From Nemertoderma westbladi (lineage: Eukaryota > Animalia > Xenacoelomorpha), in the NCBI GenBank assembly GCA_032718475.1, contig JAUCBJ010009099.1, forward strand, positions 1 through 64,000: a DNA stretch of 64,000 nt. Direction: 5' to 3'. A program made the position numbers and the translations under genes. A model generated the notes under the pieces. That model did no database searches. It was not told the origin of the DNA and saw only the letters and a list, made by a program, of their open reading frames with translations. Positions 8,321 to 62,588 of this stretch are shown one piece after another. Positions within the stretch are counted from its first letter, which is position 1. Every line of letters starts with the position of its first letter.

Positions 8321-8344
8321 TGTAGATGTAATAGATTACAAAAC

Positions 8345-11434: not shown

Positions 11435-11511
11435 TTATTCACCAACCCGAATCCTGTTAGATCCCAAGACCTGAAGATGGCAAGCGATAATCGCTACCTA
11501 ACGCACTGGAT
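11435..11511 (+). CDS. CFAP161: CFAP161 exon 3
   Basis: Acceptor taatttcag|. Translation LFTNPNPVRSQDLKMASDNRYLTHW plus AT. Donor AT|GTAAGT is phase 2 and joins exon 4 in frame. Confidence 0.8.
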
Positions 11512-12256
11512 GTAAGTATGTAACGTATTGGGTGTAACAATACAACGCACTGGATGTAAGTATGTAACGTATTGGGTGTAACAATACAACACACTGGATA
11601 TAAGTACGTAACGTATTGGGTGTAACAATACAACACACTGGATGTAAGTATGTAACGTATTGGGTGTAACAATACAACGCACTGGATGTAAGTACGTAAC
11701 GTATTGGGTGTAACAATACAACGCACTGGATGTAAGTATGTAACGTATTGGGTGTAACAATACAACGCACTGGATGTAAGTATGTAACGTATTGGGTGTA
11801 ACAATACAACGCACTGGGTATAAGTATGTAACGTATTGGGTGTAACAATACAACGCACTGGATGTAAGTATGTAACGTATTGGGTGTAACAATACAACGC
11901 ACTGGATGTAAGTATGTAACGTATTGGGTGTAACAATACAACGCACTGGGTATAAGTATGTAACGTATTGGGTGTAACAATACAACGCACTGGATGTAAG
12001 TATGTAACTTATTGGGTGTAACAATACAACGCACTGGATGTAAGTATGTAACGTATTGGGTGTAACAATACAACGCACTGGATGTAAGTATGTAACGTAT
12101 TGGGTGTAACAATACAACGCACTGGGTATAAGTATGTAACGTATTGGGTGTAACAATACAACGCACTGGATGTAAGTATGTAACGTATTGGGTGTAACAA
12201 TACAACGCACTGGATGTAAGTATGTAACGTATTGGGTATAATAATACAATGCACTG
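11500..12256 (+). repeat. 44-bp tandem array (17 units) straddling the exon 3 splice donor of CFAP161
   Basis: Unit AACGCACTGGAT|GTAAGTATGTAACGTATTGGGTGTAACAATAC is 12 exonic plus 32 intronic nt. 11500 to 12248 is 748 nt, or 17 x 44. Confidence 0.95.
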
Positions 12257-14377: not shown

Positions 14378-14612
14378 ATGCGAATATTTTGACCCGTTAT
14401 TACGTCCGGAATACGAGGGGATGTCGGTAAAGGTGAATACAAAGTTAATAATCCGACACGCTAAAACTGGGAACGCCTTGAGTGTAAACGGGGACAAAGC
14501 CATGGAAGGGACCGACTGTTCCGAGTACCCAGCCACTGCGCTCACCCAGCTGGATAGCCATAAAGCCGAGAAACCAACCAATCACTGGGCCCTGGTCATG
14601 GAAACATCCTAG
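14378..14612 (+). CDS. CFAP161: CFAP161 exon 4 (terminal)
   Basis: Acceptor ccggcag|A. Translation CEYFDPLLRPEYEGMSVKVNTKLIIRHAKTG...LDSHKAEKPTNHWALV matches the CFAP161 motifs DP.LR.EYEG and LDSH..EKP.NHW. Stop TAG at 14610-14612. Confidence 0.88.
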
Positions 14613-21800: not shown

Positions 21801-24629
21801 ATACAACTAGAAAGAAGGTGTAAAAAACACATACAACTAGAAAGAAGGTGTAAAAAACACATACAACTAGAAAGAAGGTGTAAAAACACATACAACTAGA
21901 AAGAAGGTGTAAAAAACACATACAACTAGAAAGAAGGTGTAAAAAACACATACAACTAGAAAGAAGGTGTAAAAAACACATACAACTAGAAAGAAGGTGT
22001 AAAAAACACATACAACTAGAAAGAAGGTGTAAAAAACACATACAACTAGAAAGAAGGTGTAAAAAACACATACAACTAGAAAGAAGGTGTAAAAACACAT
22101 ACAACTAGAAAGAAGGTGTAAAAAACACATACAACTAGAAAGAAGGTGTAAAAAACACATACAACTAGAAAGAAGGTGTAAAAACACATACAACTAGAAA
22201 GAAGGTGTAAAAACACATACAACTAGAAAGAAGGTGTAAAAACACATACAACTAGAAAGAAGGTGTAAAAAACACATACAACTAGAAAGAAGGTGTAAAA
22301 AACACATACAACTAGAAAGAAGGTGTAAAAACACATACAACTAGAAAGAAGGTGTAAAAACACATACAACTAGAAAGAAGGTGTAAAAAACACATACAAC
22401 TAGAAAGAAGGTGTAAAAAACACATACAACTAGAAAGAAGGTGTAAAAAACACATACAACTAGAAAGAAGGTGTAAAAACACATACAACTAGAAAGAAGG
22501 TGTAAAAAACACATACAACTAGAAAGAAGGTGTAAAAAACACATACAACTAGAAAGAAGGTGTAAAAACACATACAACTAGAAAGAAGGTGTAAAAAACA
22601 CATACAACTAGAAAGAAGGTGTAAAAAACACATACAACTAGAAAGAAGGTGTAAAAACACATACAACTAGAAAGAAGGTGTAAAAACACATACAACTAGA
22701 AAGAAGGTGTAAAAACACATACAACTAGAAAGAAGGTGTAAAAAACACATACAACTAGAAAGAAGGTGTAAAAACACATACAACTAGAAAGAAGGTGTAA
22801 AAACACATACAACTAGAAAGAAGGTGTAAAAAACACATACAACTAGAAAGAAGGTGTAAAAACACATACAACTAGAAAGAAGGTGTAAAAAACACATACA
22901 ACTAGAAAGAAGGTGTAAAAACACATACAACTAGAAAGAAGGTGTAAAAAACACATACAACTAGAAAGAAGGTGTAAAAACACATACAACTAGAAAGAAG
23001 GTGTAAAAAACACATACAACTAGAAAGAAGGTGTAAAAACACATACAACTAGAAAGAAGGTGTAAAAAACACATACAACTAGAAAGAAGGTGTAAAAACA
23101 CATACAACTAGAAAGAAGGTGTAAAAAACACATACAACTAGAAAGAAGGTGTAAAAAACACATACAACTAGAAAGAAGGTGTAAAAAACACATACAACTA
23201 GAAAGAAGGTGTAAAAACACATACAACTAGAAAGAAGGTGTAAAAACACATACAACTAGAAAGAAGGTGTAAAAACACATACAACTAGAAAGAAGGTGTA
23301 AAAAACACATACAACTAGAAAGAAGGTGTAAAAACACATACAACTAGAAAGAAGGTGTAAAAAACACATACAACTAGAAAGAAGGTGTAAAAACACATAC
23401 AACTAGAAAGAAGGTGTAAAAAACACATACAACTAGAAAGAAGGTGTAAAAACACATACAACTAGAAAGAAGGTGTAAAAAACACATACAACTAGAAAGA
23501 AGGTGTAAAAAACACATACAACTAGAAAGAAGGTGTAAAAACACATACAACTAGAAAGAAGGTGTAAAAAACACATACAACTAGAAAGAAGGTGTAAAAA
23601 CACATACAACTAGAAAGAAGGTGTAAAAAACACATACAACTAGAAAGAAGGTGTAAAAACACATACAACTAGAAAGAAGGTGTAAAAAACACATACAACT
23701 AGAAAGAAGGTGTAAAAACACATACAACTAGAAAGAAGGTGTAAAAAACACATACAACTAGAAAGAAGGTGTAAAAACACATACAACTAGAAAGAAGGTG
23801 TAAAAAACACATACAACTAGAAAGAAGGTGTAAAAACACATACAACTAGAAAGAAGGTGTAAAAAACACATACAACTAGAAAGAAGGTGTAAAAACACAT
23901 ACAACTAGAAAGAAGGTGTAAAAAACACATACAACTAGAAAGAAGGTGTAAAAAACACATACAACTAGAAAGAAGGTGTAAAAACACATACAACTAGAAA
24001 GAAGGTGTAAAAAACACATACAACTAGAAAGAAGGTGTAAAAAACACATACAACTAGAAAGAAGGTGTAAAAAACACATACAACTAGAAAGAAGGTGTAA
24101 AAACACATACAACTAGAAAGAAGGTGTAAAAAACACATACAACTAGAAAGAAGGTGTAAAAAACACATACAACTAGAAAGAAGGTGTAAAAAACACATAC
24201 AACTAGAAAGAAGGTGTAAAAAACACATACAACTAGAAAGAAGGTGTAAAAACACATACAACTAGAAAGAAGGTGTAAAAAACACATACAACTAGAAAGA
24301 AGGTGTAAAAACACATACAACTAGAAAGAAGGTGTAAAAAACACATACAACTAGAAAGAAGGTGTAAAAACACATACAACTAGAAAGAAGGTGTAAAAAA
24401 ACACATACAACTAGAAAGAAGGGGTGAAAAACACATACAACTAGAAAGAAGGTATAAAAAACACATACAACTAGAAAGAAGGTGTAAAAAAACATACAAC
24501 TAGAAATAAGGTGTAAAAAAACACATACAACTAGAAAGAAGGTGTAAAAAAACATACAACTAGAAATAAGGTGTAAAAAAACACATACAACTAGAAAGAA
24601 GGTGTAAAAAACACATACAACTAGAAAGA
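15862..24629. repeat. 30/29-bp satellite GAAAGAAGGTGTA(5-6)CACATACAACTA, about 290 copies, containing a 100-N gap
   Basis: Almost invariant tandem unit. Variation is only A5 versus A6, except at the degenerate edges. True length is unknown because of the gap. Confidence 0.98.
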
Positions 24630-27600
24630 GGGTTGCCTCCAGTGGAGAGGCACCTTCGGGTTGCCTCTGGTAGAGAGGCATCTTCGGGTTGCCTCCGGTA
24701 GAGAGGAACCTTCAGGTTACCTCCGGTAGAGATGAGCCTTCGGGTTGCCTCCAATAGAGAGGAGTCTTCGGGTTGCCTCTGGTAGAGTGGAGTCTTCGGG
24801 TTGCGTCCGGTAGAGAAGAGTCTTCGGGTTGCCTCCGGGAGAGAGGCATCTTCAGGTTGCCTCCAGTAGAGAGGCACCTTTGGGTTGCCTCTGGTAGAGA
24901 GGAGCCTTCGGGTTGCCTCTGGTAGAGCGGAGCCTTCGGGTTGCCTCTGGTAGAGAGGAGCCTTAGGGTTGCCTCTGGTAGAGTGGAGCCTTCGGGTTGC
25001 CTCTGGTAGAGAAGGGTCTTCGGGTTGCCTCTGGTAGAGAGGCACCTTCGGGTTGCCTCCGGTAGAGGGGAGCCTTCGGGTTGCCTCCAGTAGAGAGGAG
25101 CCTTCGGGTTACCTCTGGTAGAGAGGTGCCTTCGGGTTGCCTTCGCTGCGGTAGAGAGGAGCCTTCAGGTTGCCTCCAGTAGAGATGCACCTTCGGGTTG
25201 CCTTCGCTCCAGTAGAGAGGAGCCTTCGGGCTGCCTCCGCTGCGGTAGAGAGGAGCCTTCGGGCTGCCTCCGCTGCGGTACAGAGGAGCCTTCGGATGCC
25301 TCCAGTAGAGATGCACCTTCGGGTTGCATCCAGTAGATTGGGGCCTTCGGGTTGCCTCCGCTCCGGTAGAGAGGAGCCTTCGGGTTACCTCTTGTAGAGA
25401 AGTGCCTTCGGGTTGCCTTCGCTCCAGTAGAGATGAGCCTTCGGGTTGCCTCCACTCCGGTAGAGAGGAGCCTTCATGTTGCCTCTGGTAGAGAGGAGCC
25501 TTCATGTTGCCTCTGGTAGAGAGGAGCCTTCGGGTTGCCTCCGCTTTGGTAGAGAGGAGCCTTCGGGTTACCTCTGGTAGAGAGGTGCCTTCGGGTTGCC
25601 TTCGCTCTGGTAGAGAGGAGCCTTAGGGTTGCCTCCACTCCAGTAGAGAGGAGCCTTCGGGTTGCCTCCACTCCAGTAGAGATGCACCTTCGGGTTACCT
25701 CCGGTAGATAGGCACCTTTGGGTTGCCTCCAGTAGAGTGGAGCCTTCGGGTTGCCTCCGCTCCGGAAGAGAGGAGCCTTTGGGTTGCCTCCACTCTGGTA
25801 GTGAGGAGCCTTCGGGTTGCCTCCAGTAGAGATGCACCTTCGGGTGGCCTCCAGTAGAGTGGAGCCTTCGGGTTGCCTCCACTCCGGTAGAGAGGAGCCT
25901 TTGGGTTGCCTCCGCTCCAGTAGAGAAGAGCCTTCGGGTTGCCTCTGCTCCGGTAGAGAGGAGCCATCGGTTTGCCTCCAGTAGGGTGGAGCCTTTGGGT
26001 TGCCTCTGCTCCGGTAGAGAGGAGCCTTTGGGTTGCCTCCAGTAGAGATGCACCTTCGGGTTGCCTCCGGTAGAGAGGAGCCTTTGGGTTGCCTCCGGTA
26101 GAGAGGAGACTTCGGGTTGCCTCCACTCCCGTAGAGAGGAGCCTTTGGGTTGCCTCTGCGCCAGTAGAGAGGAGCCTTCGGGTTGCCTCCAGTAGAGAGG
26201 AGCCTTCGGGTTGCCTCCAGTAGAGATGCACCTTCGGGTTGCCTCCAGTAGAGATGCACCTTCGGGTTGCCTCCAGTAGAGTGGAGCCTTCGGTTTGCCT
26301 CCGCTCCAGTAGAGATGAGCCTAAGGGTTGCCGCCGATACGATAGAGAGGAGCCTTTGGGTTGCCACCAGTAGAGAGGAGCCTTCGGGTTACCTCTGGTA
26401 GAGAGGAACCTTCGGGTTGCCTCCGGTAGGGAGGAGCCTTCGGGTTACCTCTGGTAGAGTGGAGCCTTCGGGTTGGCTCCAGTAGAGGGGAGCCTTCGGG
26501 TTGCCTCCGCTCCGGTAGAGAGGAGCCTTCGCGTTGCCTCCACTCCGGTAGAGATGTGTCTTCGGGTTGCCTCTGCTCCGGTAGAGAGGAGCCTTCAGGT
26601 TGCCTCCACTCCGGTAGAGAGGAGCCTTTGGGTTGCCTCCAGCAGAGATGCACCTTCGGGTTGCCTCCAGTAGAGTGGAGTCTTCGGGTTGCCTCCGCTC
26701 CGGTAGAAAGGAGCCTTTGGGTTGCCTCCGCTCCAGTATAGAGGAGCCTTCGGGTTGCCTCCGCTCTGGTAGAGAGTAACCTTCGGGTCGCCTCTGCTCT
26801 GGTAGAGAGGAGCTTTGGGTTGCCTCCACTCCGGTAGAGAGGCACCTTCGGATTGCCTTCGCTCCAGTTGAGAGGATCCTTCGGGTTGCCTCCACTCCGG
26901 TAGAGAGGAGCCTTCGGGTTGCCTCTGGTAGAGAGGCACCTTTGGGTTACCTCCGGTAGAGAGGCCCTTCGGGTTGCCTCGCTCCGGTAGAGAGGAGCCT
27001 TCGGGTTGCCTCCACTCCAGTAGAGAGGAGTCTTCAGGTTGCCTCCGCTCCGGTAGAGGAGCCTTCGGGTTACCTCTGCTCCGGTAGAGAGGAGCCTTCG
27101 GGTTACCTCTGCTCCGGTAGAGAGGATCCTCTGGGTTGCCTCAGCTCCGGTAGAGAGGAGCCTTCGGGTTGCCTCCAGTAGAGAGGAGCCTTCGGGTTTC
27201 ATCCGCTCCGGTAGAGAGGAGCCTTCGGGTTGCCTCTAGTAAAGAGGCACCTTCGGGTTACCTCCAGTAGAGAGACACCTTCAGGTTGCCTCCAGTAGTG
27301 AGGAGCCTTCGGGTTTCCTCCGCTCCGGTAGAGAGGAGCCTTCGGGTTGCCTCTGGTAGAGGCACCTTCGAGTTACCTCCGGTAGAGGCACCTTTGGGTT
27401 GCCTCTGCTCCGGTAGAGATGCATCTTCGGGTTACCTCTGGTAGAGAGGCACTTTCGGGTTACCTCCGGTAGAGAGACACCTTCGGGTTGCCTCTGCTCC
27501 GGTAGAGAGGAGCCTTTGGGTTTCATCCGCTCCGGTAGAGAGGAGCCTTCGGGTTGCCTCTAGTAAAGAGGCACCTTCGGGTTACCTCCAGTAGAGAGAC

Positions 27601-28590
27601 ACCTTCAGGTTGCCTCCGCTCCGGTAGAGAGGAGCCTTCAGGTTGCCTCCAGTAGAGAGGAGCCTTCGGGTTTCATCCGCTCCGGTAGAGAGGAGCCTTC
27701 GGGTTGCCTCTAGTAAAGAGGCACCTTCGGGTTACCTCCAGTAGAGAGACACCTTCAGGTTGCCTCCGCTCCGGTAGAGAGGAGCCTTCAGGTTGCCTCC
27801 AGTAGTGAGGAGCCTTCGGGTTTCCTCCGCTCCGGTAGAGAGGAGCCTTCGGGTTGCCTCTGGAAGAGGCACCTTCGGGTTACCTCCGGTAGAGGCACCT
27901 TTGGGTTGCCTCTGCTCCGGTAGAGATGCATCTTCGGGTTACCTCTGGTAGAGAGGCACCTTCGGGTTACCTCCAGTAGAGACATCTTCGGGTTGCCTCC
28001 GCTCCGGTAGAGATGCACCTTCGGGTTACCTCTCGTAGAGAGGCACCTTCGGGTTACCTCCAGTAGAGACATCTTCGGGTTGCCTCCGCTCCGGTAGAGA
28101 TGCACCTTCGGGTTACCTCTCGTAGAGAGGCACCTTCGGGTTAGCTCCGGTAGAGAGACCCTTTGGGTTGCCTCTGCTCCGGTAGAGAGGAGCCTTCGGG
28201 TTGCCTCCGCTCCAGTAGAGAGGCACCTTCGGGTTACCTCCAGTAGAGAGACACCTTCGGATTGCCTCTGCTCTGGTAGAGAGGAGCCTTCGGGTTTCCT
28301 CCGCTCCAATAGAGATGAGCCTTCAGGTTGCCTCTGGTAGAGAGGCACCTTCGGGTTACCTCCGGTAGAGAGACACTTTCGGGTTGCCTCTGCTCCAGTA
28401 GAGAGGAGCCTTCGGGTTGCCTCCGGTAGAGAGGCACCTTCGGGTTGCCTCCACTCCGGTAGAGAGGAGCCTTCGGGTTGCCTCTGCTCCAGTATAGAGG
28501 AGCCTTCAAGTTGCCTCCGCTCTGGTAGGGAGGAGCCTTCAGGTTGTCTCCGGTATAGAAGAACCTTTGGGGTTGTCTCTGTTACAGAGG
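24630..28590. repeat. GC-rich 28/33-bp minisatellite (GGTAGAGAGGAGCCTTCGGGTTGCCTCC[GCTCC]), roughly 125-135 units
   Basis: Tandem units with an optional 5-nt insert and many point variants; it directly abuts the 30-bp satellite. Confidence 0.95.
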
Positions 28591-31469: not shown

Positions 31470-31802
31470 TTATCGCTTTTTAAACCCGTATTTTTTCCTC
31501 TCGTAGAACAGATCGGTTTTCGCGCTGCCAAGGTTTATTATTTTCGGACAGCCGTCCCTATCCTTCTCCTGCGTGGAGCACTCCTTGCAGTAGTAGGCGT
31601 CGGATATCCCGGGCCCGCCGCAGATTATACAACGGCCCTGGTAGGAGCCGTAGTTACACTCGTCGCAGATTCGCACAAGAGACGAGGGTCGCACATACGA
31701 GTCGCATATAACGCATTTACCGTCGCATTTCTCGCAGAGTCGTCCGATTGCAACTCCCGGTTGTTTGCGACAGAATATCAAATCAGGATGATGTTTGGCC
31801 AT
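31470..31802 (-). CDS. PHF5A: PHD finger-like domain protein 5A (SF3b subunit), 110 aa, intronless CDS
   Basis: [39 protein letters not shown]...[30 protein letters not shown] is the near-invariant PHF5A/Rds3 sequence. Confidence 0.97.
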
Positions 31803-32489
31803 CAAACATATAATTAAACATTTGTAGAGTTCAGTTCTGTAGTTCAAGTTCAGTCCTGCAGTCACAAGTCAGTCGGCCTACCCCAGTACGGTACCCTAAC
31901 CCTACCCTACCCTATGTACAATTAAATGCGGAAATGTTGGGTTAGTCACACCACATTACTGTAATGTTAGATAAAAAACCGCAGTACCGACAGACCCGGA
32001 GACAGAGAGAAGCTGCAGGGAGCGGACTACAGGAACGGACAAAACTCTGATACAGATGTTGCCCCTGTCAGCCTGCAAGACTCTGTGATGTGTGAATTGA
32101 CCTCGAAACTCAGTACACGTAGGTTCAGCATGTAATACCTACAGACTTATGGTGTTCCTGTTGATGATGTTGTACTGAGCAGCTGAGGCGTTGTACCGCA
32201 GCCAGATGAAAATTAAATCGAATGTTATTATCAGATTATTGCAACAACGTATCCAAGATGATGGACCATGACACAATGATGGCAAAAGTAAAACATACAA
32301 ACAATTGTTGATACCACTTTCAAACCGCTGCCTTTTGTTGTGTAGTTAGATAGAAGATCGTATCGTCTACCCACAATTTCTAAGAGCCCCTGAAATAGAT
32401 GACTGTATGATGAGCGTGGCTCAACTATGGCAATAGCCATACTGTCTCGAATGTACTATTTGATTGGAATCTAATAGATGCTGTAAGTA

Positions 32490-38371: not shown

Positions 38372-39067
38372 CTATAGTTGACCGGTAAGATGGTCGATCT
38401 TTCCCCGGAGTTCTTCCCGTTTATTGCGATTGGCCTTCTCGTTGTCGAGGTACTGCGGACGCGTCATCCTCCCATTGGTCACCTTCTCGGCCAACCCAAT
38501 GGCCTGCATTACGACGTCCCGATACTCCATCTCCCGTCGTTGGATCTCGGCGACCGCATCCACGTCGGCCAGCCGCTTCGCCGTCTCCGCCAGTGTCGCA
38601 TTCATCGCCTTCAACTCGACGTCGAGTTTCTTCCGGGCGTTCGCGAACGCGTTGGAATCCTTCGAGGATTTAAACTTGGTGACGACGGCGTCGTACTGCG
38701 AGTAGATCCCGACGCGTTTACGATGGAGTTCTAGGAACTGATGGACGAGAGCTACGGCGCGCAGTCGGCTCTCGGACTCGGCGTCCTGGTGGATGGAGAA
38801 GTCGAGACGCACGTAGATGATAACGAGGAGGAAGAAGACGTAGAGAGCCGTGACCACGATGATGGGCTCGTGGAGAAGGAGGATGTGGTTGAAGGTGTAC
38901 GATATTTCGAGGTCCTGGATGTGGTTCTCCACGAGGTTGGTGTGTCGAAGCACCACAACGGGACGTCCCACCGTGTCCAGGTAGGTCTTTACTACCTCGT
39001 CAGGACGCCGTTCAACAGGGTAAGGGGTCGTTACCTCGATGTCTCCAACACGTTCTGGGAGAATGAC
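38372..39067 (-). CDS. RPN1: Ribophorin I (OST subunit 1), exon 2
   Basis: Acceptor ctgcccag|GTC. Translation VILPERVGDIEVTTPYPVERRPDEVVKTYLDTVGRPVVV, then TM helix EPIIVVTALYVFFLLVIIYVRLDFSI. Length is 696 nt, in frame. Confidence 0.92.
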   Translation of the reverse strand, partial: VILPERVGDIEVTTPYPVERRPDEVVKTYLDTVGRPVVVLRHTNLVENHIQDLEISYTFNHILLLHEPIIVVTALYVFFLLVIIYVRLDFSIHQDAESESRLRAVALVHQFLELHRKRVGIYSQYDAVVTKFKSSKDSNAFANARKKLDVELKAMNATLAETAKRLADVDAVAEIQRREMEYRDVVMQAIGLAEKVTNGRMTRPQYLDNEKANRNKREELRGKIDHLTGQL

Positions 39068-39136
39068 CTGGGCAGGTAATTAATAATAGTACATTAGTAT
39101 AGGGCCTAATTCTAATCTTTATAAATATATCGATAC

Positions 39137-41221
39137 ACTTACCTTGTTTACCTCCAACCGATCCACTAACCTTGACCTCCAACCGATCCACTTACCTTGA
39201 CCTCCAACCGATCCACTATACTTGACCTCCAACCGATCCACTTACCTTGACCTCCACCAACCGATCCACTTACCTTGACCTCCACCAACCGATCCACTTA
39301 CCTTGACCTCCAACCGATCTACTTACCTTGACCTCCACCAACCGATCCACTTACCTTGACCTCCACCACCGATCCACTTACCTTGACCTCCAACCGATCC
39401 ACTTACCTTGACCTCCAACCGATCCACTTACCTTGACCTCCAACCGATCCACTTCCCTTGACCTCCAACCGATACACTTACCTTGACCTCCACCAACCGA
39501 TCCACTTACCTTGACCTCCACCAACCGATACACTTACCTTGACCTCCACCAACCGATCCACTTACCTTGACCTCCAACCGATCCACTTACCTTGACCTCC
39601 AAGTGTCCAACTGATCCACTTACCTTGACCTCCACCAACCGATCCACTTACCTTGACCTCCACCAACCGATCCACTTACCTTGACCTCCACCAACCGATC
39701 CACTTACCTTGACCTCCAACCGACCCACTTACCTTGACCTCCACCAACCGATCCACTTACCTTGACCTCCACCAACCGATTCACTTAAGTTGACCTCCAG
39801 CCGATCCACTTACCTTGACCTCCAACCGATCCACTTACCTTGACCTCCAACCGATCCACTTACCTTGACCTCCAACCGATCCACTTACCTTGACCTCCAC
39901 CAACCGATCCACTTACCTTGACCTCCACCAACCGATCCACTTACCTTGACCTCCACCAACCGATCCACTTACCTTGACCTCCAACCGATCCACTAACCTT
40001 GACCTCCAACCGATCCACTTCCCTTGACCTCAACCGATCCACTTACCTTGACCTCCACCAACCGATCCACTTACCTTGACCTCCACCAACCGATCCACTT
40101 ACCTTGACCTCCACCAACCGATCCACTTACCTTGACCTCCAACCGATCCACTTACCTTGACCTCCACCAACCGATCCACTTACCTTGACCTCCACCAACC
40201 GATCCACTAACCTTGACCTCCAACCGATCCACTTACCTTGACCTCCAACCGATCCACTTACCTTGACCTCCACCAACCGATCCACTTACCTTGACCTCCA
40301 CCAACCGATCCACTTACCTTGACCTCCACCAACCGATCCACTTACCTTGACCTCCAACCGATCCACTAACCTTGACCTCCAACCGATCCACTTCCCTTGA
40401 CCTTCAACCGATCCACTTACCTTGACCTCCACCAACCGATACACTTACCTTGACCTCCACCAACCGATACACTTACCTTGACCTCCACCAACCGATCCAC
40501 TTACCTTGACCTCCAACCGATCCACTTACCTTGACCTCCACCAACCGATCCATTTACCTTGACCTCCACCAACCGATTCACTTAAGTTGACCTCCAGCCG
40601 ATCCACTTACCTTGACCTCCAACCGATCCACTTACCTTGACCTCCAACCGATCCACTTACCTTGACCTCCAAGTGTCCAACTGATCCACTTACCTTGACC
40701 TCCACCAACCGATCCACTTACCTTGACCTCCAGCCGATCCACTTACCTTGACCTCCAACCGATCCACTTACCTTGACCTCCAACCGATCCACTTACCTTA
40801 ACCTCCACCAACCGATCCACTTACCTTGACCTCCACCAACCGATCCACTTACCTTGACCTCCACCAACCGATCCACTTACCTTGACCTCCAACCGATCCA
40901 CTTACCTTGACCTCCACCAACCGATTCACTTACCTTGACCTCCAGCCGATCCACTTACCATGACCTCCAACCGATCCACTTACCTTGACCTCCAACCGAT
41001 CCACTTACCTTGACCTCCAAGTGTCCAACTGATCCACTTACCTTGACCTCCAACCGATCCACTTACCCTGACCTCCACCAACCGATCCACTTACCCTGAC
41101 CTCCACCAACCGATCCACTTACCTTGACCTCCTCCAACCGATCCACTTACCTTGACCTCAAACCGATCCACTTACCTTGACCTCCAACTGATCCACTTAC
41201 CTTGACCTCCAAACGATCCAC
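39137..41221 (-). repeat. 25/28-bp tandem array (about 75-80 units) straddling the RPN1 splice donor and filling about 97% of the intron
   Basis: Unit GTGGATCGGTT[GGT]GGAGGTCAAG|GTAA is the last 21 exonic nt plus GTAA. Junctions between units regenerate AAG|GTAAGT. Confidence 0.96.
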
Positions 41222-42286
41222 CACGTAATCGTCGAACACATGATCCACCAGCCGGATCCGAAGACGATATTCGTTGTCCCGGGTAAAGAGGTACTGGTAG
41301 GTGGGCAGGTTGTAGCCGACGGTAAAGTGGGTCTTCCAACCCCCGAACAACGGAAACCGCGGACGAATTGTTACGTCCACGGAGTCGCTCTGCTCCCACA
41401 GATTCGACGTGGAGATGTTACCGATTTCGTCCCGGTAGTAAACGTCTTTCGCCAACGCCGGGAGAATCATCTTAAACTCCTTGAAAGCGGACAAGGTCTC
41501 CTGGGAACGTTGGTAGTCATAACGACTGAAGGTTCCTTTGAGAGTCGCTCCACTGTGCAGGAAGTTAAAGGTCTCCTCGACGGCGATGTTACCCCAGTGA
41601 GAGACTTCGATGACGCGTTGCATATCAGTGATAGTGATGAAGGCTTTGTTGTTCTCGTAGTGGATGGTGAGAGGCTGATGGGAGAAGGGTTCTACATCTA
41701 CGTAGGGACCGTATGTGATGAGGTTCTCTGATTGGGAAGTGGGATCCAGACGGGAGAATGTTTCAGTCTTCGTGGGGACTGGTAGATTGGCCGTGGTTGT
41801 TACTGACTTGGTTTTGTACGGAGAGTAGAAGTAGTAGTTGCCGGTGTATAGGACTAGTTGGCGTTCCGATTGACGGATGCTGGTAGGATAAGGGCGCAGG
41901 TTGTGGCTGTAAACCAAGGTCGCTTCTATCTTTGTCGAGTCGCCGGAGATTAGCGGCTTCTCCAAGGTCACCTCGACTCCGCTCTTATCTGCCTCGAGAG
42001 TTACTCGTTTGACTGGAAGTTCCACGGTTTCATCGCCGTTGTCGGTTGCGGTCGCCCCGAAGAAAGCGAGATTCTCGTCCAGATTTGGATCTAAGCCCAA
42101 TACGTAGGAGTCAGTTGGTTTAGAGCCGAGGTTCTCTATGGTGATGGTCGATGTTATCTTAACTAACTGAGAGGAGAGATCAATGGCCCGTTCCACTTTC
42201 CTGTTGATGAGATTTTCATTATTGGGCAAACCGAAAACTAACGTGGAAGTTAGTCCAGCGCACAACAACAATTGCAGCATCATCAT
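41201..42286 (-). CDS. RPN1: Ribophorin I, exon 1
   Basis: Signal peptide, then motifs IEVSHWGNIAVEE, FSRYDYQR, YYRDEIGNISTS and RPRFPLFGGWKT. It ends VDRLEVK|GTAAGT in phase 0. Spliced product is 593 aa. Confidence 0.94.
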
Positions 42287-42415
42287 GTTTGATAATAAAA
42301 AAGAGACAGATAAGAGATAACACCACTAAAAATGTAACGTAGGCCTACTAATTGCTAGCTAACGTAAAACTTAATCCTGTAGCTGTGTAGTGTGTATGTG
42401 TAGTGTACCGGCTGA

Positions 42416-46751: not shown

Positions 46752-47794
46752 TGTAAAGGTTCTGACAAACTGTTTTATTATCTTCTCTCTAGTGGTATAT
46801 AAATGAAACTGTAAGTGAGATTAGTAGATATATTTACATGCGCCATCCTGCGGTTGATATTAGTATTTGTATTAGTCTAACAATACCCCCTCGCAATGAA
46901 TGATACTTGCACTAACGTAACGCTAAGTTTGTATAACACACTCATGCAAATATATCTCGCGTAATTATTTAATAATATATATATCTAAATATGTATAGTG
47001 TATTGTTTTCCACTTCTTAAAGTTTTTGTAACCGTATTAGTTCGTGGTGGATGATCTGTGTTCTGCGATACGGGTTGTATTATTTCTTCCCTTTCGATGT
47101 TTCCAGCAGACATTTCTAAAGAACCATTCGAAAATTTAGAAAAATCACTTACAAAATATTTCAGAAAAGGTAAATCAAAAGAAGTCGAAAGAAAACGATT
47201 CATACAAGCGACTCAGACATCGGGAGAAAACATCACGGATTTCGCCAAACGTCTAAGAAATATTTCAAGAAATTGCGAATTTCAAGAAGCATTAGATGAC
47301 CGTTTACGAGAACAACTAATTGCTGGGGTACGAGACGAACATGTTGCAGCAGAACTAATACACGCGAAAGACATTTCATTTTCAGAAGCTTTGATTACAG
47401 CAAAAAATTATGAAGAGGCATATAAAGTGGCACATCAGGTAGGAAACCAGAATTTGACACGTTTCGCGTCACTACACAAAGTTCAGGATTTCCGAAAGAT
47501 AAATATCGCCATACAAAGGAAGATCTCCTTCATATAAACCTTACAAATCTACAGAAAATTACAATCAATATTCTATAACATGTTATCGGTGTGGGAAACA
47601 AGGACACAAATCAAACCATTGTCGACTAAATCCTACTCGCAGCGCCAATGTTGGATGGAAAGGTGTAAAGGTTCTGACAAACTGTTTTATTATCTTCTCT
47701 CGAGTGGTATATAAATGAAACTGTAAGTGAGATTAGTAGATATATTTACATGCGCCATCCTGCGGTTGATATTAGTATTTGTATTAGTCTAACA
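46752..47794 (+). mobile_element. Gag-only LTR retroelement remnant (Gypsy-type gag) bounded by 131-bp direct repeats
   Basis: Near-identical repeats TGTAAAGG...GTCTAACA at 46752-46882 and 47664-47794. Gag-like ORF 47058-47537, then a CCHC knuckle CYRCGKQGHKSNHC at 47581 in another frame. Purine-rich GGATGGAAAGG precedes the second repeat. Confidence 0.8.
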
Positions 47795-51496: not shown

Positions 51497-54400
51497 TTAT
51501 ACGAAACCGAAATTCTTCGCTTTTATGGCCAATTGTATTTTAGCTCGTAAAGTAGATTTAGTGGCGTAAAGAGGGATGTACAAACGGGAAATACAAGTGT
51601 TCGCTGTGGGCAGATGGTGCTCGTCTGCTGGGCGGATAGTGACTGTAGGGAGTGGCTGGAAACCCTCCTCACTGGCCGGAAGGCCGGGACTTCCGGTCCA
51701 GAAGTAGACCAACTCCTGCCGCTCAGACGGACTCATTCGCTCCAAAACCGACCAGAACCACTTCTTAAACTTCGCTAATCTCTCAGCCGTCTCTCCGCTT
51801 TCATCATTGAACGAGGTGTAGCCTTGTAGAGTCTTTATCTCGATGTAGAGACAGCCGTTGAGAAGCAACCGGAGGTCTTCCGCGGTCAACCCATCCAGCC
51901 CGTTACGCGGTATCACATCAAACACCCCGAGCTTCAGCTGAACCAACGGTTTCGCTACCGATGTCACCATCCGGTACTCTGCGTAACGTTTCGCGTAGTC
52001 GAATACATTGTCGGGAGTCACGGCGGGTATATTCCGACAACCGGATAGATTAACCATCCGACCACCCTCCTCCTTACTAAGTTCCACGCTGAAGGTAAGA
52101 TCGACTGTAGCGAGGACCTCGGCGGCGTTCTCACTGTTCATATCGTTGAGAAGTTGTCGCAAACTTTCGTAGGTAATCGGATCGAAGAAGGCAAGATCGT
52201 GCCACGCAATTCGTCTTCCGAGGATGTACTTGAGGACGTGACGACAGAGCGGCAAGGGGAACAGCTCGTTCTGCAGCAAACACAAGCCGATCAGTCGACC
52301 CACGTTCCGGTAGAGATTTAGTCGCTCGGGCGAGTTACCTCCGGCACGGATAGAGTAGAAACCTTTCTTACCGGGCTCGAAGAACAACGCCGGCTCCGGG
52401 ATATCTTCAGCCTTACCCGCCCCCTTGCTACTCAATCTATTACTCATAATCAACTTCATCGCTTCCGCAACTTTCGCTTTAAGATGAGCTTCGCTCGTGA
52501 GGAAAATCATGAGCTGGGGCTGCGTCTGATCCAATAACATCCCGGTTATCTTTGCGGCGAACGCGGGTTGCAATGCGAACACTTTGGGGTAGAGTTTGTC
52601 TCCGAGGGACTGGCGAGGGGTGGACTGCGGTTCCGATTCGCCGCCTTGTTGCTGCGGCAATGGGCGGAACGGCTTCGACTCATAAGATAACAATAATCGG
52701 GACTTCCCTTTGGCGCCGTCGGATCCGATTTTGAACCGGGGGTGTAGAGAAGCGGCGGTCGCCTTGGAGACGCTGTGGAACTCGTCCAGTGAAGGCAACG
52801 GCTCTGGACTGAGGAAAGCCTCAGCGATGGCCGTAAAGAAACTCCGAGCCACCCCTGTTCCCTCCCCCGGCTCATTCTTGAACATGACCTTAACTCTGTG
52901 GACGGCCATCGGTTGGGCAACCTGCGACGACCGCCGTGTGAACTGCGCGTTAAGTTGTTTTAACGTCTGTACGATGAGGTGCTTACGCTCACGGTCCACT
53001 TCCAGGGTTAGATCTCGGTTCTGGTTGTTCCGCAGACGTTCCATCTCCCGCCGGAACTTAACTTCTTTCACATCGAAGCCGCCCAACTCTGGCAGCACGG
53101 AACTAGGCTCGGCCCCAACGTCGTCCAGGAAGACACGGCTGAACAACTCGATCGTGTGGTACCAACGGCCCAATAAAATATTCCTGCTGGATGGGAGAGG
53201 GAAGATCTCTCGGCTCGGTCGACTATTGGACCCTGAGTCAAACTGTGGTACAGCATTGGCGGGACCCTGAGCACCATACTCTGGCCGTTTATTTGACCCC
53301 ATAACACCGTACTTTGGCCGTTTATCTGTGCCCATAGCGCCGTACTCTGGCCGTTTATCTGACCCCATAGCGCCGTACTCTGGCCTTTTATTTGACCCCA
53401 TAGCGCCGTACTCTGGCCTTTTATCTGACACCATAGCACCGTACTCTGGTCGTTTATCTGACCCCATAGCGCCGTACTCTGGCCTTTTATCTGACACCAT
53501 AGCTCCGTACTCTGGCCGTTTATCTGACCCCATAACACCGTACTCTGGCCGTTTATCTGACCCCACAGCGCCGTACTCTGGCCTTTTATCTGACACCATA
53601 GCGCCGTACTCTGGCCGCTTATCTGACCCCATAACACCGTACTCTGGCCGTTTATCTGACACCATAGCGCCGTACTCTGGCCGTTTATCTGACCCCATAA
53701 CACCGTACTCTGGCCGTTTATCTGACACCATAGCGCCGTACTCTGGCCTTATATCTGACCCCATAGCGCCGTACTCTGGCCGTTTATCTGATCCCATAGC
53801 GCCGTACTCTGGCCTTTTATCTGACCCCATAGCGCCGTACTCTGGCCGTTTATCTGATCCCATAGCGCCGCTGTACTCTGACCATTTGCCTGATACCATA
53901 GCGACGTAATCATGTGGTTTATCAGAATAAACAGCACCGTACTCAGGTGCTTTATCAGAATTAGAAGCTACCATACCATAGTCAGGATCAACAATGGAAC
54001 GCGGGAGACCAGCTGCTTGGCCGGACTCGGCAGTGAGGTTCTCGTAAAGACTCGGTTCTTTCGGTTGCCTGGCTTCTGCTGACCCACTGTATTCAGGGAA
54101 TGCAGCAACATACGGGAGCCCTTGGATTCCGGATACAGAACCAGTGGATCTATATGCATCAGAACCTTTAGGATCGGAGTAGTTGCAGTTCATCTCAGTA
54201 TCAGTGCAAAGCGACTTCAGTTCGTGCAAATTCGCCCTTATTGTTGCGCTCAGAGTGGAAGTCATATCGAGAGACTCTGCGATGAGGGAGGGCAAACTCT
54301 GTGATTCGGAATGGCCTTCAGACATAGACGGATCCGGGTGCCATATAACCGATTGTGTGGGCTGGCTCATGGCCGGTTCCGTTGACGGTAGGGGTATATG

Positions 54401-57400
54401 GGAATAAGAAGTTCCTGGCTCATTACCAATACTTCCAGTGAAAACAGCCCTGCCATGGATACCTGGAAACGGTTGCCCTGTGTCCTGGCAAGGGAAACCT
54501 GGAATCTGTTGACTGGTATCCTGGCCATGGAAATCGGGAATCTGTTGACTGCTTTCTGGCATTCTATGGTTTTTGCTCATTGTATCATGAAAGGAAGGGG
54601 CATCTCGTGCTGGAAGACCAGAGAATGGATTAGCGGGTTTCACTACAAGATCTAGAGCACCACTATCTTCTACACTTTGGGATTGCACCAACTCAGCTCC
54701 AGCAATCGTAGAATCCAGAGTATAAGTACTATTCAGCAAACTTTCGACACTTTCGCCAAGGCCTCCTTCTTCAACGACAGTGTGAACCGCCTTGAATAAA
54801 GTACTTTGATCATTTAACCCTATATCAGAGGGGAAATTAGGGGCTGGTCTTCGGGACAAGATTCCCATGTGGCAAGGAGGGGCAGAATCAGCATGGGAAA
54901 ACAATGCACAGTGGTTTACATCGAGATCCGGTTTACACATAACAGTTTTACCAAAACATTCATCCCGCCGCGCCGAAGGTGTCAGTATGTGGGGCGCATT
55001 GGCCAATGGCAATGCCTCAGACATAGGAGTCTCTATCGGGTCGGATGGATTGCTTCCCAAAAACGTTGTTGACTCTGACCGTTGAAAAAATACATTTTTC
55101 CGGCCAACCGTTCCCAAGCCGGTGTCGTCACTAAAAAATACAGGGATCTCACAACCTTCGGAGTCTTCAGATTCAAAAGATGGACTGAATGCAGTGGTGG
55201 GGCTGTCTATCGAATATTGTTGAGATATGTCCTCCTCATCATTGTTCATCAGCGTAGAAAATATCTTCACTGAATAAATTAGGGAATCTGCTACATAAGC
55301 TACATGCTTCAGAGAAGCGACATCTACAACAGGAACTGTGTCGCCATGGTCTGCTGTGTGGCTCCGCAATAAAGAAAGGGTGTAATTGAGAAAATCACGA
55401 CGCGCTAAACTTGTATCTTGAGGCATAGAAAGCCGTGTCTTCTTACGAGTATCAGAGAAGGTTGATCGCCACAATGTGCATAGATCGTCTCGACGTGATT
55501 TCGTTCTCGTGGACGTGGTATACAATGGGTTTCGCGGGTGGGCCGGATGGCTGCTATCAGATGCAGCAGCGAGAGCCGAGCCAAACCGCAACTGACCTTC
55601 AGTTGCGTCCATTACTTGTAGCAACCAATCCCATACGGGTCTCAACAAATTCTGAGCATACAAGTAAAGATTGGTCGCATCGGAGACACTGATAACCGGG
55701 AGATGGCAAATAGTCGAAGGGGCGGAATATGGATAACTGAATGCATCCAATATGAGATCACAGAGCTGCCGAATTAATATTCCATATAGTCGACCAAGTG
55801 AACTGTTGGTAGTATCAATGGATACAGTGTTAGCATCAGCATGATTAACATTAGCTGATGAAGCTGTTGTTCCTCCTCTTAGTGATGAATGGTGGTCAAT
55901 GTAAATGAGGTTACTTCCAGATGATGTCGAAGCCATTGTGGTACTAGGACGACTTCCACCCAGAGCCCACTGCATTTGCGAGGGCCGACTGGTTGCAGTA
56001 GACATCTCTGCCCCTCCAATAAACCTAGACTGGGGGTTTGATTCATTCTCGGACTCTTCACTCTCCTCTTCATCATCCTGACCACTGTCACCATCGTCCA
56101 CATCGCTACCATCCCCATCAGTCCGAGTTGGTGGTTGTATCCGCCTAGCTGTAGGATTCTCAATAGCATCGCCGTGGTTACTGTCTGAATCAGACTCTGA
56201 CTCAACAAACATATCTAATTCCATGTCAGAATCGAGAGCCACTTCAGATTCCTGACGCATTCTCTCTCTGGGCGCTGTGGATTGGTCGTTTGTATCAGCA
56301 GTGCGCTGTGCGGTTGATGTTTCATTTGACTGCGACCGAGATATATTTCCGCTGCCCGATGACCTACCGAGTTGATACCCATGTCGTGAAGATGTCCCCA
56401 CATTTCCAGCTGACGACACATCCGCTAATGTTGATCCTGTGTGTAAGGGGAGTGGATCAACCTGGAATATTTCATCACTCCCACTGATGGCATCTGTGCA
56501 GGACTGATACAAACTAAAAGTCATAGAGGGTCGGGAAATTCCGAAACGTACTGGAACTATTATTGCAGCTGAAGCCTGTGCCAACTCCTCTATAGCAATG
56601 CCTAGCAACATTTGAAAGGCTCGCTTCGCCCGTATAATTGGTTGTGTCGTTAGGATAAGTTTATGTTTGCTTGGAGTAATTTCGATGTTGAGAATAATAA
56701 ATACCCGTATAACAGACCTGATAAATCGTCTGGCAACTGATTCGATTTCTTTGTTGTTATTTCCCATCTGCTGAATTATTGTGGTCAGTAGAGCATCCAA
56801 GACCTCAACATTGCATTTGACCAGCAAGCAATGAGTGAATGAATCAAGTTTAACAGCTACTGATTGAGAAGATAAAACATCATCACTGATAGGCTCTGAT
56901 GGACTTCCAAGTTCAAACATGCTTTTAACCGCTGGCCAACAATGCATTACTTGTGCCAAAGCAGATCTAGCAAACTTTGGTGGCTCCGGTTGTATTTCAT
57001 TAGCATCTGCATCAGTTCCTTTCCTTCTCTTACTGTACTGCTTTTGTTCGTGCATCTGCCGGGCGACAGTTTGAACTAAAAACAGGGGTAAAGTTTCACC
57101 GCGACTATTGGGCAGTTGCACAAGATCCGTATGTTCCAACAACCACATCAATAACTCATGTCTTGCAGCCTGATTTCCGGCCGCAAGGCTTTTACAATTG
57201 CACTTCCATTTGCAACGCTCCCAACAGTCACAGTAGGCTGTAGGAGAGGTGCTCTTCAGTTTGCAGTCATGGCCTTTGTGGCAGACACGAGCGCATTCAG
57301 TGCAACAACACAACTGATCCTGCAGACCACACGTTTTGCATTCAAAAATATCCTGATTGATGTGCTCCTCGCCAGTCCAGGTGAAACTACACGTATCATT

Positions 57401-60400
57401 AGCACAAATAAGATAAAGGGGTGAATCATCAGGGTTGCTCCCAGGCGGATATATCATTTTCATCATCAGCTGTTTGTCGCTGTCAAAATGATGTTTTATT
57501 TTATTAATAAGTAGTGACGCAGCTGTGTAAGCTCGCAAATTAATAGACAACATAAATGGAGTGTTGCCCTGGTAATCTTTAGAACAAAGCAATTCAGTTA
57601 AGTGTGGGCTTACAACTTCACTATCACAAATCATTTTCAATACATCTGATGGTTTGCCTTCATCAGCAAGTGGAATGAATCCTGTGGCCGACTTAGGAAT
57701 ATCATCGACAGGAGGTGGAATAGCCCCGGGTTGCTGGAGATGCCAGTTGTGAGCCAAATGGGAACTCAGTTCTGGAATATCTTCATAATCAGCTGGCGGG
57801 CTCCCGCTGTGTAAAGGTGACGACAAAGCTGCGCGAGTAGCTTGCCTCATCATCTCTCTAAGGTTAATCCGATGATACGATGGGGGTGCCATTGCTTCAT
57901 TACTTGGGTGAGTAGGAGCAGAGGTCTTTGGTGTTACATTTCGAACTGGTGCACATTTACTGATTGCCAGATGAAGAATATTGAAATTGCCATCTGCTTT
58001 CTCCCAAATACCCGATGTATGTTGTTGATCTAAAGACATAAGCTGAAGAAACGATCGAACAGCCTCACTGTTTGATAGGGAAATAGCTGTCGACAAAGGT
58101 TGAGAGCGGTAAAACAAGATAGCTATAGCACTAGACCTGCCATCGGGTTGAGGATGAATTCCCATGGTTACAGTTTCAACAGGTGGTAGATTGAATGTAA
58201 CTGGCTCAGCAATCCCACCAACAAAATTATGCTGCAAAGGGTATAGACATCTATTACCATCCAACATGATAGTTGTATCAAGACCACAACTGTATAAGGA
58301 CAAACAAGGAGGTTGGTTGCCATCAAAAGTCAGAGGTAAATGACTATAATCTCCAGGCTTACCTGATGTCATTTCATACACAGTAATCTGAAGTTTTCCA
58401 TTTACATAATAGATAGCTTTCAGGCCTCCCACATATGCCACATAAGACACCAACCTTGCATTGTCTGGGACAGTTAATCTCTTTGGATTGCGTTGAATAT
58501 AATCTGGTGAACGTAATGTTACAGTTGACTTAGCTAGCTGAAGCTCGTCTTTTCTGAGAAGTCGACAACTTTCAAGTGCTGGTATTGCAGACTCTTTAGA
58601 TTCATTGGACTGGGTTTCAGTATTGAATTGAACAGCAGCGTATATGCCATCAATTTTAATCACCTTCCCAACTGGTGTAGACTTTGTGTCCTCTACAAAA
58701 ATAACATCCTTCAGATCCCAATAATATGTTGCAGTAGTGTCATTGCCATCATCTCCAGAGTACTTACGTTTGGATGTGATGTTAGTTGACATTGTCGAGT
58801 CATGTTGGTCTTTTTCAAATGCTGAAGAAGTCGGATATATTGGCCGAAACAAACTTTTCTCATTTGTACTCCATGCCGACTCCAACAGTCGACCCGCCTG
58901 GGGAACGCCACCAAACAAGGTAAAACCGATACATCCATGACAGTACAGAGGTAAACTTCGCAAACAGACTTGGCTGCCAGTGACAATCTGAGCAGCCGCA
59001 CCACCAGCAAACCCTCCACCCACACCAATACGATTAGTACGAGTTCGCACCTTCTCTATGAGCTTCTTAGACTGTGCTGTTGGAACAACCCCCCACCAAT
59101 AGATACCACCAGATTCCGTCGTCACACACGAATAAAGGTAACATACAGATAAACTCACAATATGCTCCCCTGCAAGTTCAGGGTATGTAACAGCCGGATG
59201 TCCAAGTTTTGAAGTTATATGATTGATACTTTCGTCATAAAATGTAGCCAATTTACCAGATTCTAATAACAATGTCGCTCTTATTATAGACGACTTCAAA
59301 TCCGTGATTTTCTCGTTTTCCAAGTTGAGATCTTGGATCCGAGGATGTGTTAAAACATCACCATCGGTAGAATATGGGAGCATATTGGACCACTTCCACT
59401 GCCACAGAGTTCCGCTGTTGGAAACAGCTAATAACTCAGAATGGAGTGCAGCTATTTGTACAAACCTCACATCCTTTACAGGCATATATTCAAAATTAGC
59501 AAGTGATATGTCCTGGTTGTTTGTGGGAGTGTATGTCCTGTAGTTGGATGATCCTTGTGAAGGGCCATCTTGTAGAAGTGAGCCACCCATCCAATTACGA
59601 TCTCTTGATTCTGGATAGGCATCACGAGTCGCCCGGACTGCTCTCGTCCTACACGAAGCAGTAAAGAAATCTTCGGGAAAAAGTGGGTCATCATGAACGA
59701 CCATACCATGATGGTCTGAGTTTATAGAGGCGTCCAACAGCGACATAAGGTCCTCCCCAGTCGGCATATACTCTGAGTTATCTTCTTCTTCATTTCCATC
59801 ATCATCTTCGCAACTCAGAAGATTATTCACCGCTATGTTCACATCAAGATTTGTTCGTTGCAACTCTCGTATTATCACATTCCTGGATTTTCCCTGGAGA
59901 ACTGCTTGAGCTTGAGTTACAAGTTCTTCTGGTACAACTGATGCAGGTATCACCATGCGGTTCCCCATAACAATACCGATTGCGCTATTACTCAATGAAG
60001 AACGGGCTCGCCCACTCATACCCATTCGCGCCTGACGAATGCGTTTTGCATTTCTTGCAGTTCCGATCAAACTAGGTGATGATGAAGATGACGCTGTTTT
60101 AGAAGTTGATGATGCCAAAGATGATGACCATTTTGTACGTTTGTTTTGATCAGATTTTTCAGCATCACCAGATGATTGATTAGCAGTCACTGAATAAGCA
60201 ACCCGACAAACACGACCATCTGCTGAAAGGAAAACCAAATGGCTAGGTCCAACCACACACTGTTGAACTGATTGTTCCAAGCCAGGGGGGAGTATGTTTT
60301 GAGAAGCAGAACTCCTTCCAGCTTGCGAAGCCGCAAACAGTTTTTCAACCAACTGCTCCTCTGAAGATGGTTGGGGTAGAAGAAGAAAATCTGTAGAAAT

Positions 60401-62455: not shown

Positions 62456-62588
62456 CTGGCAGTATAACAGTATATTATTATTATAGTACTGTAGTACAGT
62501 AGTAGCTCATGAGTAGTAGTAGTCCACGACTAACTCATGAGTCACTCTGTTGTGGGGCGAGCCACGAAGTAAGTGAGCCAAGGCGTAG

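What the first reader, a model, noticed from the sequence alone, without database searches (positions are those of the whole stretch)
39068..41221. RPN1 intron is almost entirely a tandem array of its own 5' splice site (about 75-80 x AAG|GTAAGT)
Seen: the 2133-nt intron (41200 to 39068) is a 25/28-bp array plus a unique 75-nt tail (39142 to 39068) that is itself a complete GTAAGT...CAG intron. The unit is the last 21 nt of exon 1 plus GTAA, so nearly every unit rebuilds a consensus donor with its exonic context. Microhomology GTGGATCG (exon -21) versus GTGTATCG (residual intron +5) marks the likely seed duplication. Donors 2 and 3 (41175, 41150) add 25 or 50 nt and frameshift, and later donors include the in-frame TAA at 41149-41147, so only the most upstream donor gives ribophorin I. 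Established: GTAAGT is the U1 snRNA-complementary donor, and RPN1 is a core OST subunit. Inference: the cell must either commit to the first donor co-transcriptionally, re-splice or ratchet through AG|GT units, or lose transcripts to NMD. The array could act as a U1-loading platform or a length-tunable expression rheostat.
Basis: partly seen in the sequence, partly recalled or inferred. Interest (0 to 1): 0.88.

Follow-up and report, generated by a model that had tools for sequence, protein, structure and literature searches.

The report
Splice-donor minisatellite fills RPN1 intron
The end of the first exon of an animal's ribophorin I gene, together with its splice signal, is repeated 78 times and fills almost the whole intron, yet the spliced sequences assembled from two public runs use only the first signal, so this is likely a large but near-harmless example of a repeat type already known from human and lancelet genes.

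Summary
Real, but a known kind. RPN1's only coding intron (41200-39068, minus strand, 2133 nt) is 96.5% a 25/28-bp minisatellite. Of its 78 units, 67 carry GTAAGT and 64 carry AAG|GTAAGT. A unique 75-nt tail holds the branch-like motif and the acceptor. DNA-like runs from two studies hold the array edges and high-depth unit contigs, which argues against an assembly artefact. Two RNA-like runs from two studies join exon 2 only to the first donor; contigs cannot exclude rare use of others. The units lack any branch motif or pyrimidine tract, so ratcheting is unlikely. Mutations show no bias for or against the donor. The same arrangement is published for human F7, CBS, 6-16, LMNB2, PDGF and ABCA7 and for amphioxus 'mirages', and this scan found it before on other DNA. 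Best reading: a microhomology-seeded, near-neutral minisatellite, tolerated because the most upstream donor wins. Mildly notable: 63 extra consensus donors and a complete 75-nt proximal intron are passed over, read depth hints at length differences between samples, and a second donor array sits in a neighbouring CFAP161 intron.

The parts
41201..42286 (-). RPN1 (ribophorin I) coding exon 1, 362 codons, ends ...DRLEVK, phase 0
   Evidence: Pfam PF04597 E 2.4e-109, profile 2-350; tblastn of 9 of 9 homologues tested ends at 41198 (8) or 41177 (1); covered by X1 contigs
41197..41221 (-). Seed unit: last 21 nt of exon 1 plus GTAA; holds the authentic donor at 41201|41200
   Evidence: Sequence; loose ends of X1 and X5 carry the exon-specific variant letters
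39139..41221 (-). Minisatellite of 78 units (25/28/33 bp); commonest 25-bp unit GTGGATCGGTTGGAGGTCAAGGTAA; 67 GTAAGT, 64 AAG|GTAAGT; the first 6 units and the last are all variants
   Evidence: edges and unit contigs in X2, X3, X4
41147..41149 (-). In-frame TAA met by any transcript that uses donor 4 or later, or retains the intron
39068..39142 (-). Unique 75-nt tail: last pseudo-donor GTAAGT (39142), branch-like TACTAAT (39099-39093), acceptor CAG; likely the pre-expansion intron
   Evidence: present in X2 and X4 DNA contigs, no cover in X1 or X5
38372..39067 (-). RPN1 coding exon 2 (231 codons plus stop), with the hydrophobic membrane-anchor stretch and the C-terminal tail
   Evidence: Pfam PF04597 profile 351-436; ORF; tblastn; X1 and X5 contigs
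11500..12256 (+). Second donor minisatellite in the same window: 44 bp x 17; unit = last 12 nt of a predicted CFAP161 exon (11435-11511) plus the first 32 nt of the intron; 13 GTAAGT
   Evidence: flanking exons match CFAP161; the 25-aa exon itself had no match and is inferred from splice signals, phase and length; not tested with RNA

Best explanation
This is a minisatellite that copies the RPN1 exon 1 end and its splice donor 78 times, likely seeded by slippage between two 8-nt look-alike words on either side of the donor and likely near-neutral, because the spliced sequences seen use the first donor. Shown: the array, its unit, the microhomology, its presence in DNA-like runs, the donor-1 junction in RNA-like runs, and that every other donor would truncate the protein. 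Inferred: an ordinary 75-nt intron duplicated positions -21 to +4, and the copies then grew by ordinary minisatellite turnover (variant edge units, homogeneous middle) in a repeat-prone genome. Inferred from mammalian work: U1 snRNP commits to the first donor as it emerges, stays tethered to RNA polymerase II, and is delivered to the single branch point and acceptor 2.1 kb later, so the downstream copies loop out with the intron.
For: The junction 41201|39067 is the only loose end at the acceptor in X1 (depth about 5000) and X5, and the only one at the donor in X1; neither run covers the intron. X3 and X4 contigs run from exon 1 into the first units (to 41130 and 41122); X2 and X4 contigs run from exon 2 through the tail into the distinctive last unit. 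No mutational bias at the donor. Seven large arrays cover 27% of the window, among them an in-frame one in UBR5 and a second donor array. Precedent: F7 IVS7 uses only the most upstream of 5-9 identical donors, and the paper lists 6-16, CBS, LMNB2 and PDGF (PMC1557585). Amphioxus mirages do not disturb splicing (PMC3087553). The 5' splice site is tethered to Pol II through U1 (PMC8316553, abstract and passages).
Against: The data are assembled contigs, which drop rare variants, and the runs are RNA only by my inference (the index guesses 'DNA?'). Low-level use of donor 2 or 3, as reported for ABCA7, CBS and 6-16, is therefore not excluded. In F7 minigenes perfect-consensus pseudo-sites took 70-90% of splicing from a weak first site; here all donors are consensus, though the first is as strong as the rest. 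PMC8316553 reports that cryptic intronic 5' sites also associate with U1 and Pol II and that several can be attached at once, so tethering alone does not explain exclusivity. The mutation test has only 19 events. No expression or fitness data test neutrality.
Confidence: 0.8

Rival explanations
1. Leaky donor choice makes the array a length-dependent dimmer of RPN1: some transcripts use downstream donors, are truncated or degraded, and longer alleles lose more.
For: All 66 other GTAAGT donors give truncated products. Human ABCA7, also a 25-bp unit starting at the donor (12-427 units), shows retention of one unit and length-dependent exon 19 skipping (PMC5954066, passages). Unit-contig depth differs between X4, X3 and X2, a weak hint of length alleles.
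Against: No alternative junction in X1 or X5, although X1 kept side contigs of depth 8-370 beside main depths of 3200-5400. Products of donors 2-4 should escape junction-dependent NMD (rule recalled). In ABCA7 the one-unit retention was not affected by VNTR length.
Confidence: 0.1
2. The intron is removed stepwise: each unit's AAG|GT acts as a zero-length exon (ratchet point), or a mis-spliced product is re-spliced from donor 1 to the regenerated AG in front of exon 2.
For: Nearly every unit has AG directly before GTAAGT, and any such path ends in the same mature junction, so the contigs cannot tell the paths apart.
Against: No YTRAY motif in the array, longest pyrimidine run 3, C only 8%, and the AG in front of the donors is AAG. 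The real acceptors of RPN1 and RPRD1 have TACTAAT or CTCTAAC upstream of CAG. The intron is only 2.1 kb.
Confidence: 0.04
3. The array was kept or amplified for a function such as U1 loading (telescripting, transcription boost) or G-quadruplex-based control.
For: 86% of donor slots are intact (67 of 78). ViennaRNA predicts two-tier G-quadruplexes in the 28-bp units (-42 vs -12 kcal/mol on 112 nt).
Against: Intact donors are what recent homogenisation gives, and mutations are not depleted at the donor. The intron holds no AATAAA or ATTAAA to protect. G4Hunter mean 0.77, maximum 1.16, under the usual 1.2 cut-off (cut-off recalled). Depth suggests much shorter arrays in other samples.
Confidence: 0.04
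4. Assembly artefact: the real intron is the 75-nt tail.
For: No read or contig was seen to bridge the whole array, and the window has a 100-N gap inside another array.
Against: Three DNA-like runs from two studies hold the array edges and stop there. X4 unit-contig depth is 12-18x and 20-29x single copy, against 17x and 23x expected from the window.
Confidence: 0.02

Closest known systems
Human F7 IVS7 37-bp VNTR and the class listed with it: 6-16 (25 pseudo-sites), CBS IVS13 (15-20 units), LMNB2 (10-15 x 100 bp), PDGF intron 4 (16-18 x 81 bp). PMC1557585; seen: abstract, Introduction, one Results section, Discussion
   Same: The first unit spans the exon-intron boundary, the donor is reiterated downstream, and the most upstream donor is used.
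   Different: 78 units against 5-25. All donors are full consensus (F7's score 74 of 100). The array is 96.5% of the intron and ends in a complete 75-nt intron. It is the gene's first and only coding intron, so no upstream acceptor in the coding region defines the exon.
Human ABCA7 intron 18 VNTR (PMC5954066; seen: passages)
   Same: 25-bp unit that begins at the exon's donor; large copy numbers (12-427).
   Different: The ABCA7 unit starts at the GT and carries no exon end as described. It shows one-unit retention and length-linked exon skipping. ABCA7 arrays can be far longer, so 78 units is no record.
Amphioxus 'mirages' in Adh3 and globin genes (PMC3087553; seen: abstract passage and section 16; the original Adh3 paper not seen)
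   Same: Invertebrate tandem repeats spanning exon-intron boundaries, several per genome, length-unstable, edge units left out of homogenisation, normal splicing.
   Different: The globin cases have 150-160-bp units in a few copies (3-6 in BflGb6) and include acceptor-side repeats. Somatic instability was shown for Adh3 and is not testable here.
Recursive splice sites (ratchet points); features recalled
   Same: AG|GT juxtaposition in each unit.
   Different: No branch motif, no pyrimidine tract, AAG rather than YAG, short intron.

Membership tests
Exon-intron-boundary (splice-donor) minisatellite, F7/mirage class | First unit spans the exon-intron boundary | tested here: met
   Unit = exon -21..-1 plus intron +1..+4; boundary fixed by Pfam, homologues and spliced contigs
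Exon-intron-boundary (splice-donor) minisatellite, F7/mirage class | Donor sequence reiterated head to tail in the intron | tested here: met
   67 GTAAGT in 78 units
Exon-intron-boundary (splice-donor) minisatellite, F7/mirage class | Most upstream donor used exclusively or predominantly | tested here: met
   Only the donor-1 junction in X1 and X5 contigs; contig level only, rare use not excluded
Exon-intron-boundary (splice-donor) minisatellite, F7/mirage class | Variable copy number between alleles | tested here: inconclusive
   Unit-contig depth over single copy: X4 12-18 and 20-29, X3 3-6 and 4-8, X2 at most about 2 among the rows shown; the tool warns that depth is no copy number, and 38 rows were not shown
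Exon-intron-boundary (splice-donor) minisatellite, F7/mirage class | Homogenised interior with divergent edge units | tested here: met
   Units 0-5 and 77 are all variants; 44 of 78 units are one of two exact types
Amphioxus mirage (strict sense) | Somatic length instability | not testable with these tools
   Needs single-animal long reads or small-pool PCR
Ribophorin I (RPN1, OST subunit 1) | PF04597 across a protein of about 600 aa, collinear with animal RPN1 | tested here: met
   (47-55% identity to the 120 listed hits; best named hits are echinoderm, mollusc and chordate RPN1)
Recursive splice site (ratchet point) | Functional 3' splice site (branch point, pyrimidine tract, YAG) abutting the 5' site | tested here: not met
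   No YTRAY in the array, longest Y run 3, AAG
Recursive splice site (ratchet point) | Intra-intron junction or lariat reads | not testable with these tools
Intron gained by tandem duplication of AG|GT exon sequence | Intron, including its acceptor, derived from duplicated exon sequence | tested here: not met
   The acceptor and branch motif lie in a unique AT-rich 75-nt tail unrelated to the unit

The most novel reading that the evidence does not exclude
In this intron-poor animal, minisatellites are seeded preferentially at splice donors: 2 of the 5 introns identified in 64 kb carry an array of their own donor, each with an 8-9-nt microhomology at the ends. The RPN1 array is a length-polymorphic natural titration (perhaps under 10 to about 80 consensus donors) in which a cap-proximal first donor beats a complete 75-nt proximal intron, with array length tuning RPN1 output.
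Probability: 0.1. Interest if true: 0.55.

Novelty: new member of a known kind. Interest (0 to 1): 0.22.

Why it matters
As found, it is one more case of a published repeat class, at the large end. Its value is as a test case for a question still argued over: whether the spliceosome takes the first donor transcribed or the donor nearest the acceptor. Here 63 further AAG|GTAAGT donors of the same sequence, and a complete short intron beside the acceptor, are passed over in a housekeeping gene of an animal far from mammals, which suggests the upstream-donor rule seen at human F7 is general. If length alleles exist, they would give a natural dose series.

Tried and rejected
No whole genome is held for this window, so donor arrays could not be counted genome-wide. 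No RNA holder was listed by the run index; that blank is not used as evidence. The two flanks were laid separately and the array interior not at all, so the joint table was empty and the junction rests on loose-end letters. Higher-order block structure in the array as proof of real turnover: not significant, 41 of 300 shuffles reached it. RNA structure hiding the pseudo-donors: predicted unpaired probability 0.17 for donor 1 against a median of 0.19 inside the array. The last donor is lower (0.03), but that region folds no better than shuffles (180 of 200). G-quadruplex: inconclusive. The substitution test left out 6 of 78 units (the five of 24, 27 or 33 bp and the last, indel-bearing unit). 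The predicted 25-aa CFAP161 exon found no Pfam or PDB match alone. The 151-bp array at 62585-63037 lies near a GTAAGT, but no gene was found there. A search for a published RPN1 intron repeat listed 4 papers, none on it by title or abstract start. A search for a source on steric interference between closely spaced U1 sites gave nothing that I read, so that idea is not used. No look-alike of this gene among the scan's earlier findings. The host lineage is unresolved: the best RPN1 hits are only 47-55% identical. Conservation of the intron position in other animals was not tested. No supplementary files were consulted.

Full report
Observation. On the minus strand, coding exon 1 runs 42286-41201, the intron 41200-39068 (2133 nt) and coding exon 2 39067-38372. 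Splicing at these points gives a 593-aa frame. Pfam Ribophorin_I positions 2-350 lie on exon 1 and 351-436 on exon 2. Nine of nine homologues tested (of 120 listed) align in two pieces that meet at this junction. The gene is an animal RPN1 without a close relative in the database (47-55% identity).

The array. It has 78 units counting the exonic one: 37 of 25 bp, 36 of 28, 3 of 33, and one each of 24 and 27. It makes up 96.5% of the intron. GTAAGT occurs 67 times and AAG|GTAAGT 64 times; 11 donor slots have a damaged core. The unit is exon -21..-1 plus GTAA, bounded by GTGGATCG in the exon and GTGTATCG in the tail. The 75-nt tail has GTAAGT, a branch-like TACTAAT about 26 nt from the end, and CAG.

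Is it real? Five runs hold the exon 1 query. X2, X3 (study P2) and X4 (study P3) behave as DNA. X3 and X4 contigs run from exon 1 into the first units (to 41130 and 41122). X2 and X4 contigs run from exon 2 through the tail into the distinctive last unit and end in the array. X2, X3 and X4 differ from the window at several exonic positions, so they include other haplotypes. In X4 the two main unit contigs have depth 244 and 405 against 14-20 for single copy, ratios of 12-18 and 20-29; the window predicts 17 and 23. X3 gives 3-6 and 4-8, and X2 at most about 2 among the rows shown. The tool warns that contig depth is no copy number and 38 rows were hidden, so this is only a hint of shorter alleles. 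No read bridged the array.

Which donor is used? X1 (study P1) and X5 (study P2) are labelled 'DNA?' by guess. I infer they are RNA, because they have depth in the hundreds to thousands on the exons, none on the intron, and contigs that join the exons. At the acceptor each has one loose end, whose letters match only 41203-41232, the true exon end with its own variant letters. At the donor X1 has one loose end, with exon 2 letters, and its depth in the bin 41163-41205 is fully explained by 7 overlapping bases. X1 kept side contigs of depth 8, 12, 19, 194 and 370 beside main depths of 3200-5400, so a common alternative junction would probably have shown. Contigs still drop rare variants, so this is not proof of absence.

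Consequences of other donors. Donors 2 and 3 give 388- and 390-aa frameshifted products with the stop in exon 2; the remaining 64 stop at codon 380. All end before the hydrophobic stretch of exon 2 (membrane anchor by recalled RPN1 topology). For donors 2-4 the stop lies after the junction or 24 nt before it. By the recalled 50-55-nt rule, junction-dependent NMD would not hide them, provided no further intron follows in the 3' UTR (none seen down to 38300). Junction-independent decay remains possible.

Mechanism. Ratcheting needs a 3' splice site in each unit. The array has no YTRAY, its longest pyrimidine run is 3 and its C content 8%, while the RPN1 and RPRD1 acceptors have branch-like motifs before CAG. 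Predicted structure does not single out donor 1. Mutations do not avoid or target the donor: 8 of 19 distinct substitutions fall in the 9 donor positions of 25, p=0.64, with 6 units left out. The simplest reading is positional: the most upstream donor wins. That was shown by mutagenesis for human F7, where a 37-bp VNTR spans the exon 7 donor (PMC1557585; abstract, Introduction, one Results section and Discussion read). A physical basis is offered by U1-mediated tethering of the 5' site to Pol II (PMC8316553; abstract and passages). Applying either to this animal is inference. Two results cut against complete comfort: perfect pseudo-sites did compete in F7 minigenes, and cryptic intronic donors also associate with U1 and Pol II.

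Context. The window is repeat-prone and intron-poor. Seven large arrays cover 27% of it, and UBR5 is one 2983-aa frame with an in-frame 33-bp array. A second array, 44 bp x 17 at 11500-12256, copies the last 12 nt of a predicted CFAP161 exon and the first 32 nt of the intron, again with a microhomology at its ends and a stop that poisons every later donor. The flanking exons match CFAP161 chains and leave a gap of about 30 residues that the 25-aa exon fits; the exon alone had no match and was not checked with RNA. So 2 of the 5 introns I identified carry donor arrays. A rough post hoc chance for the second one is 0.026: suggestive, from one case.

Comparison with what is known. The class is published: F7, 6-16, CBS, LMNB2 and PDGF, ABCA7 with a 25-bp unit and 12-427 copies (PMC5954066, passages), and amphioxus mirages (PMC3087553, section 16). 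PMC10078293 (passages) added nothing specific. Eight earlier notes of this scan describe the same arrangement in other genomes, up to about 63 units; they are unchecked AI notes and did not set my reading, which was recorded before I saw them. Membership features that I could test are met, apart from copy-number variation, which is inconclusive. Membership of recursive splice sites and of introns gained by tandem duplication fails on a defining feature. One search for a published RPN1 intron repeat listed nothing on it.

Verdict. Observation confirmed with a small correction; interpretation partly supported. New member of a known kind, interest 0.22. What is slightly unusual is its extremity: equal-strength consensus donors, an array filling the gene's only coding intron, and a complete 75-nt intron ignored next to the acceptor.

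Noticed in passing
window 11500-12256 (+), CFAP161-like gene 9074-14612: Second splice-donor minisatellite, 44 bp x 17 with 13 GTAAGT, at the donor of a predicted 77-nt exon; only the first donor keeps the frame into the last exon.
   Followed up: partly
window 41175, run X4 record 25: The contig linked to exon 1 lacks one letter at donor 2, which would remove the -1 G and weaken that pseudo-donor in that haplotype.
   Followed up: no
window 51497-60448 (-), array 53270-53908: UBR5/EDD-like HECT ligase as a single 2983-aa frame with an in-frame 33-bp x 19 minisatellite (11-aa repeat); PHF5 (31470-31868) is also uninterrupted and RPRD1 has one 438-nt intron, so the genes are intron-poor.
   Followed up: partly
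window 15873-28590: Two abutting large arrays: 30 bp x 286 (98% matches, with a 100-N gap) and a degenerate 28/61-bp array of about 4 kb; not examined for genes or splice signals.
   Followed up: no
window 42313-42383, run X1: Depth falls from about 3800 to about 300 just upstream of the start codon, and one contig has a 13-letter loose end at 42313; transcript start, indel allele or added leader not distinguished.
   Followed up: no
window 1145-3882 (+), 7998-8351 (-), 47055-47715 (+): Broken retroelement pieces: a reverse transcriptase split over several frames (RVT_1), a weak GIY-YIG match, and weak gag and zinc-knuckle matches.
   Followed up: no
window 38513-38547, run X5 record 13: A low-depth 753-nt contig shares only 35 letters with exon 2 and then runs on unlike; probably chimeric.
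   Followed up: no
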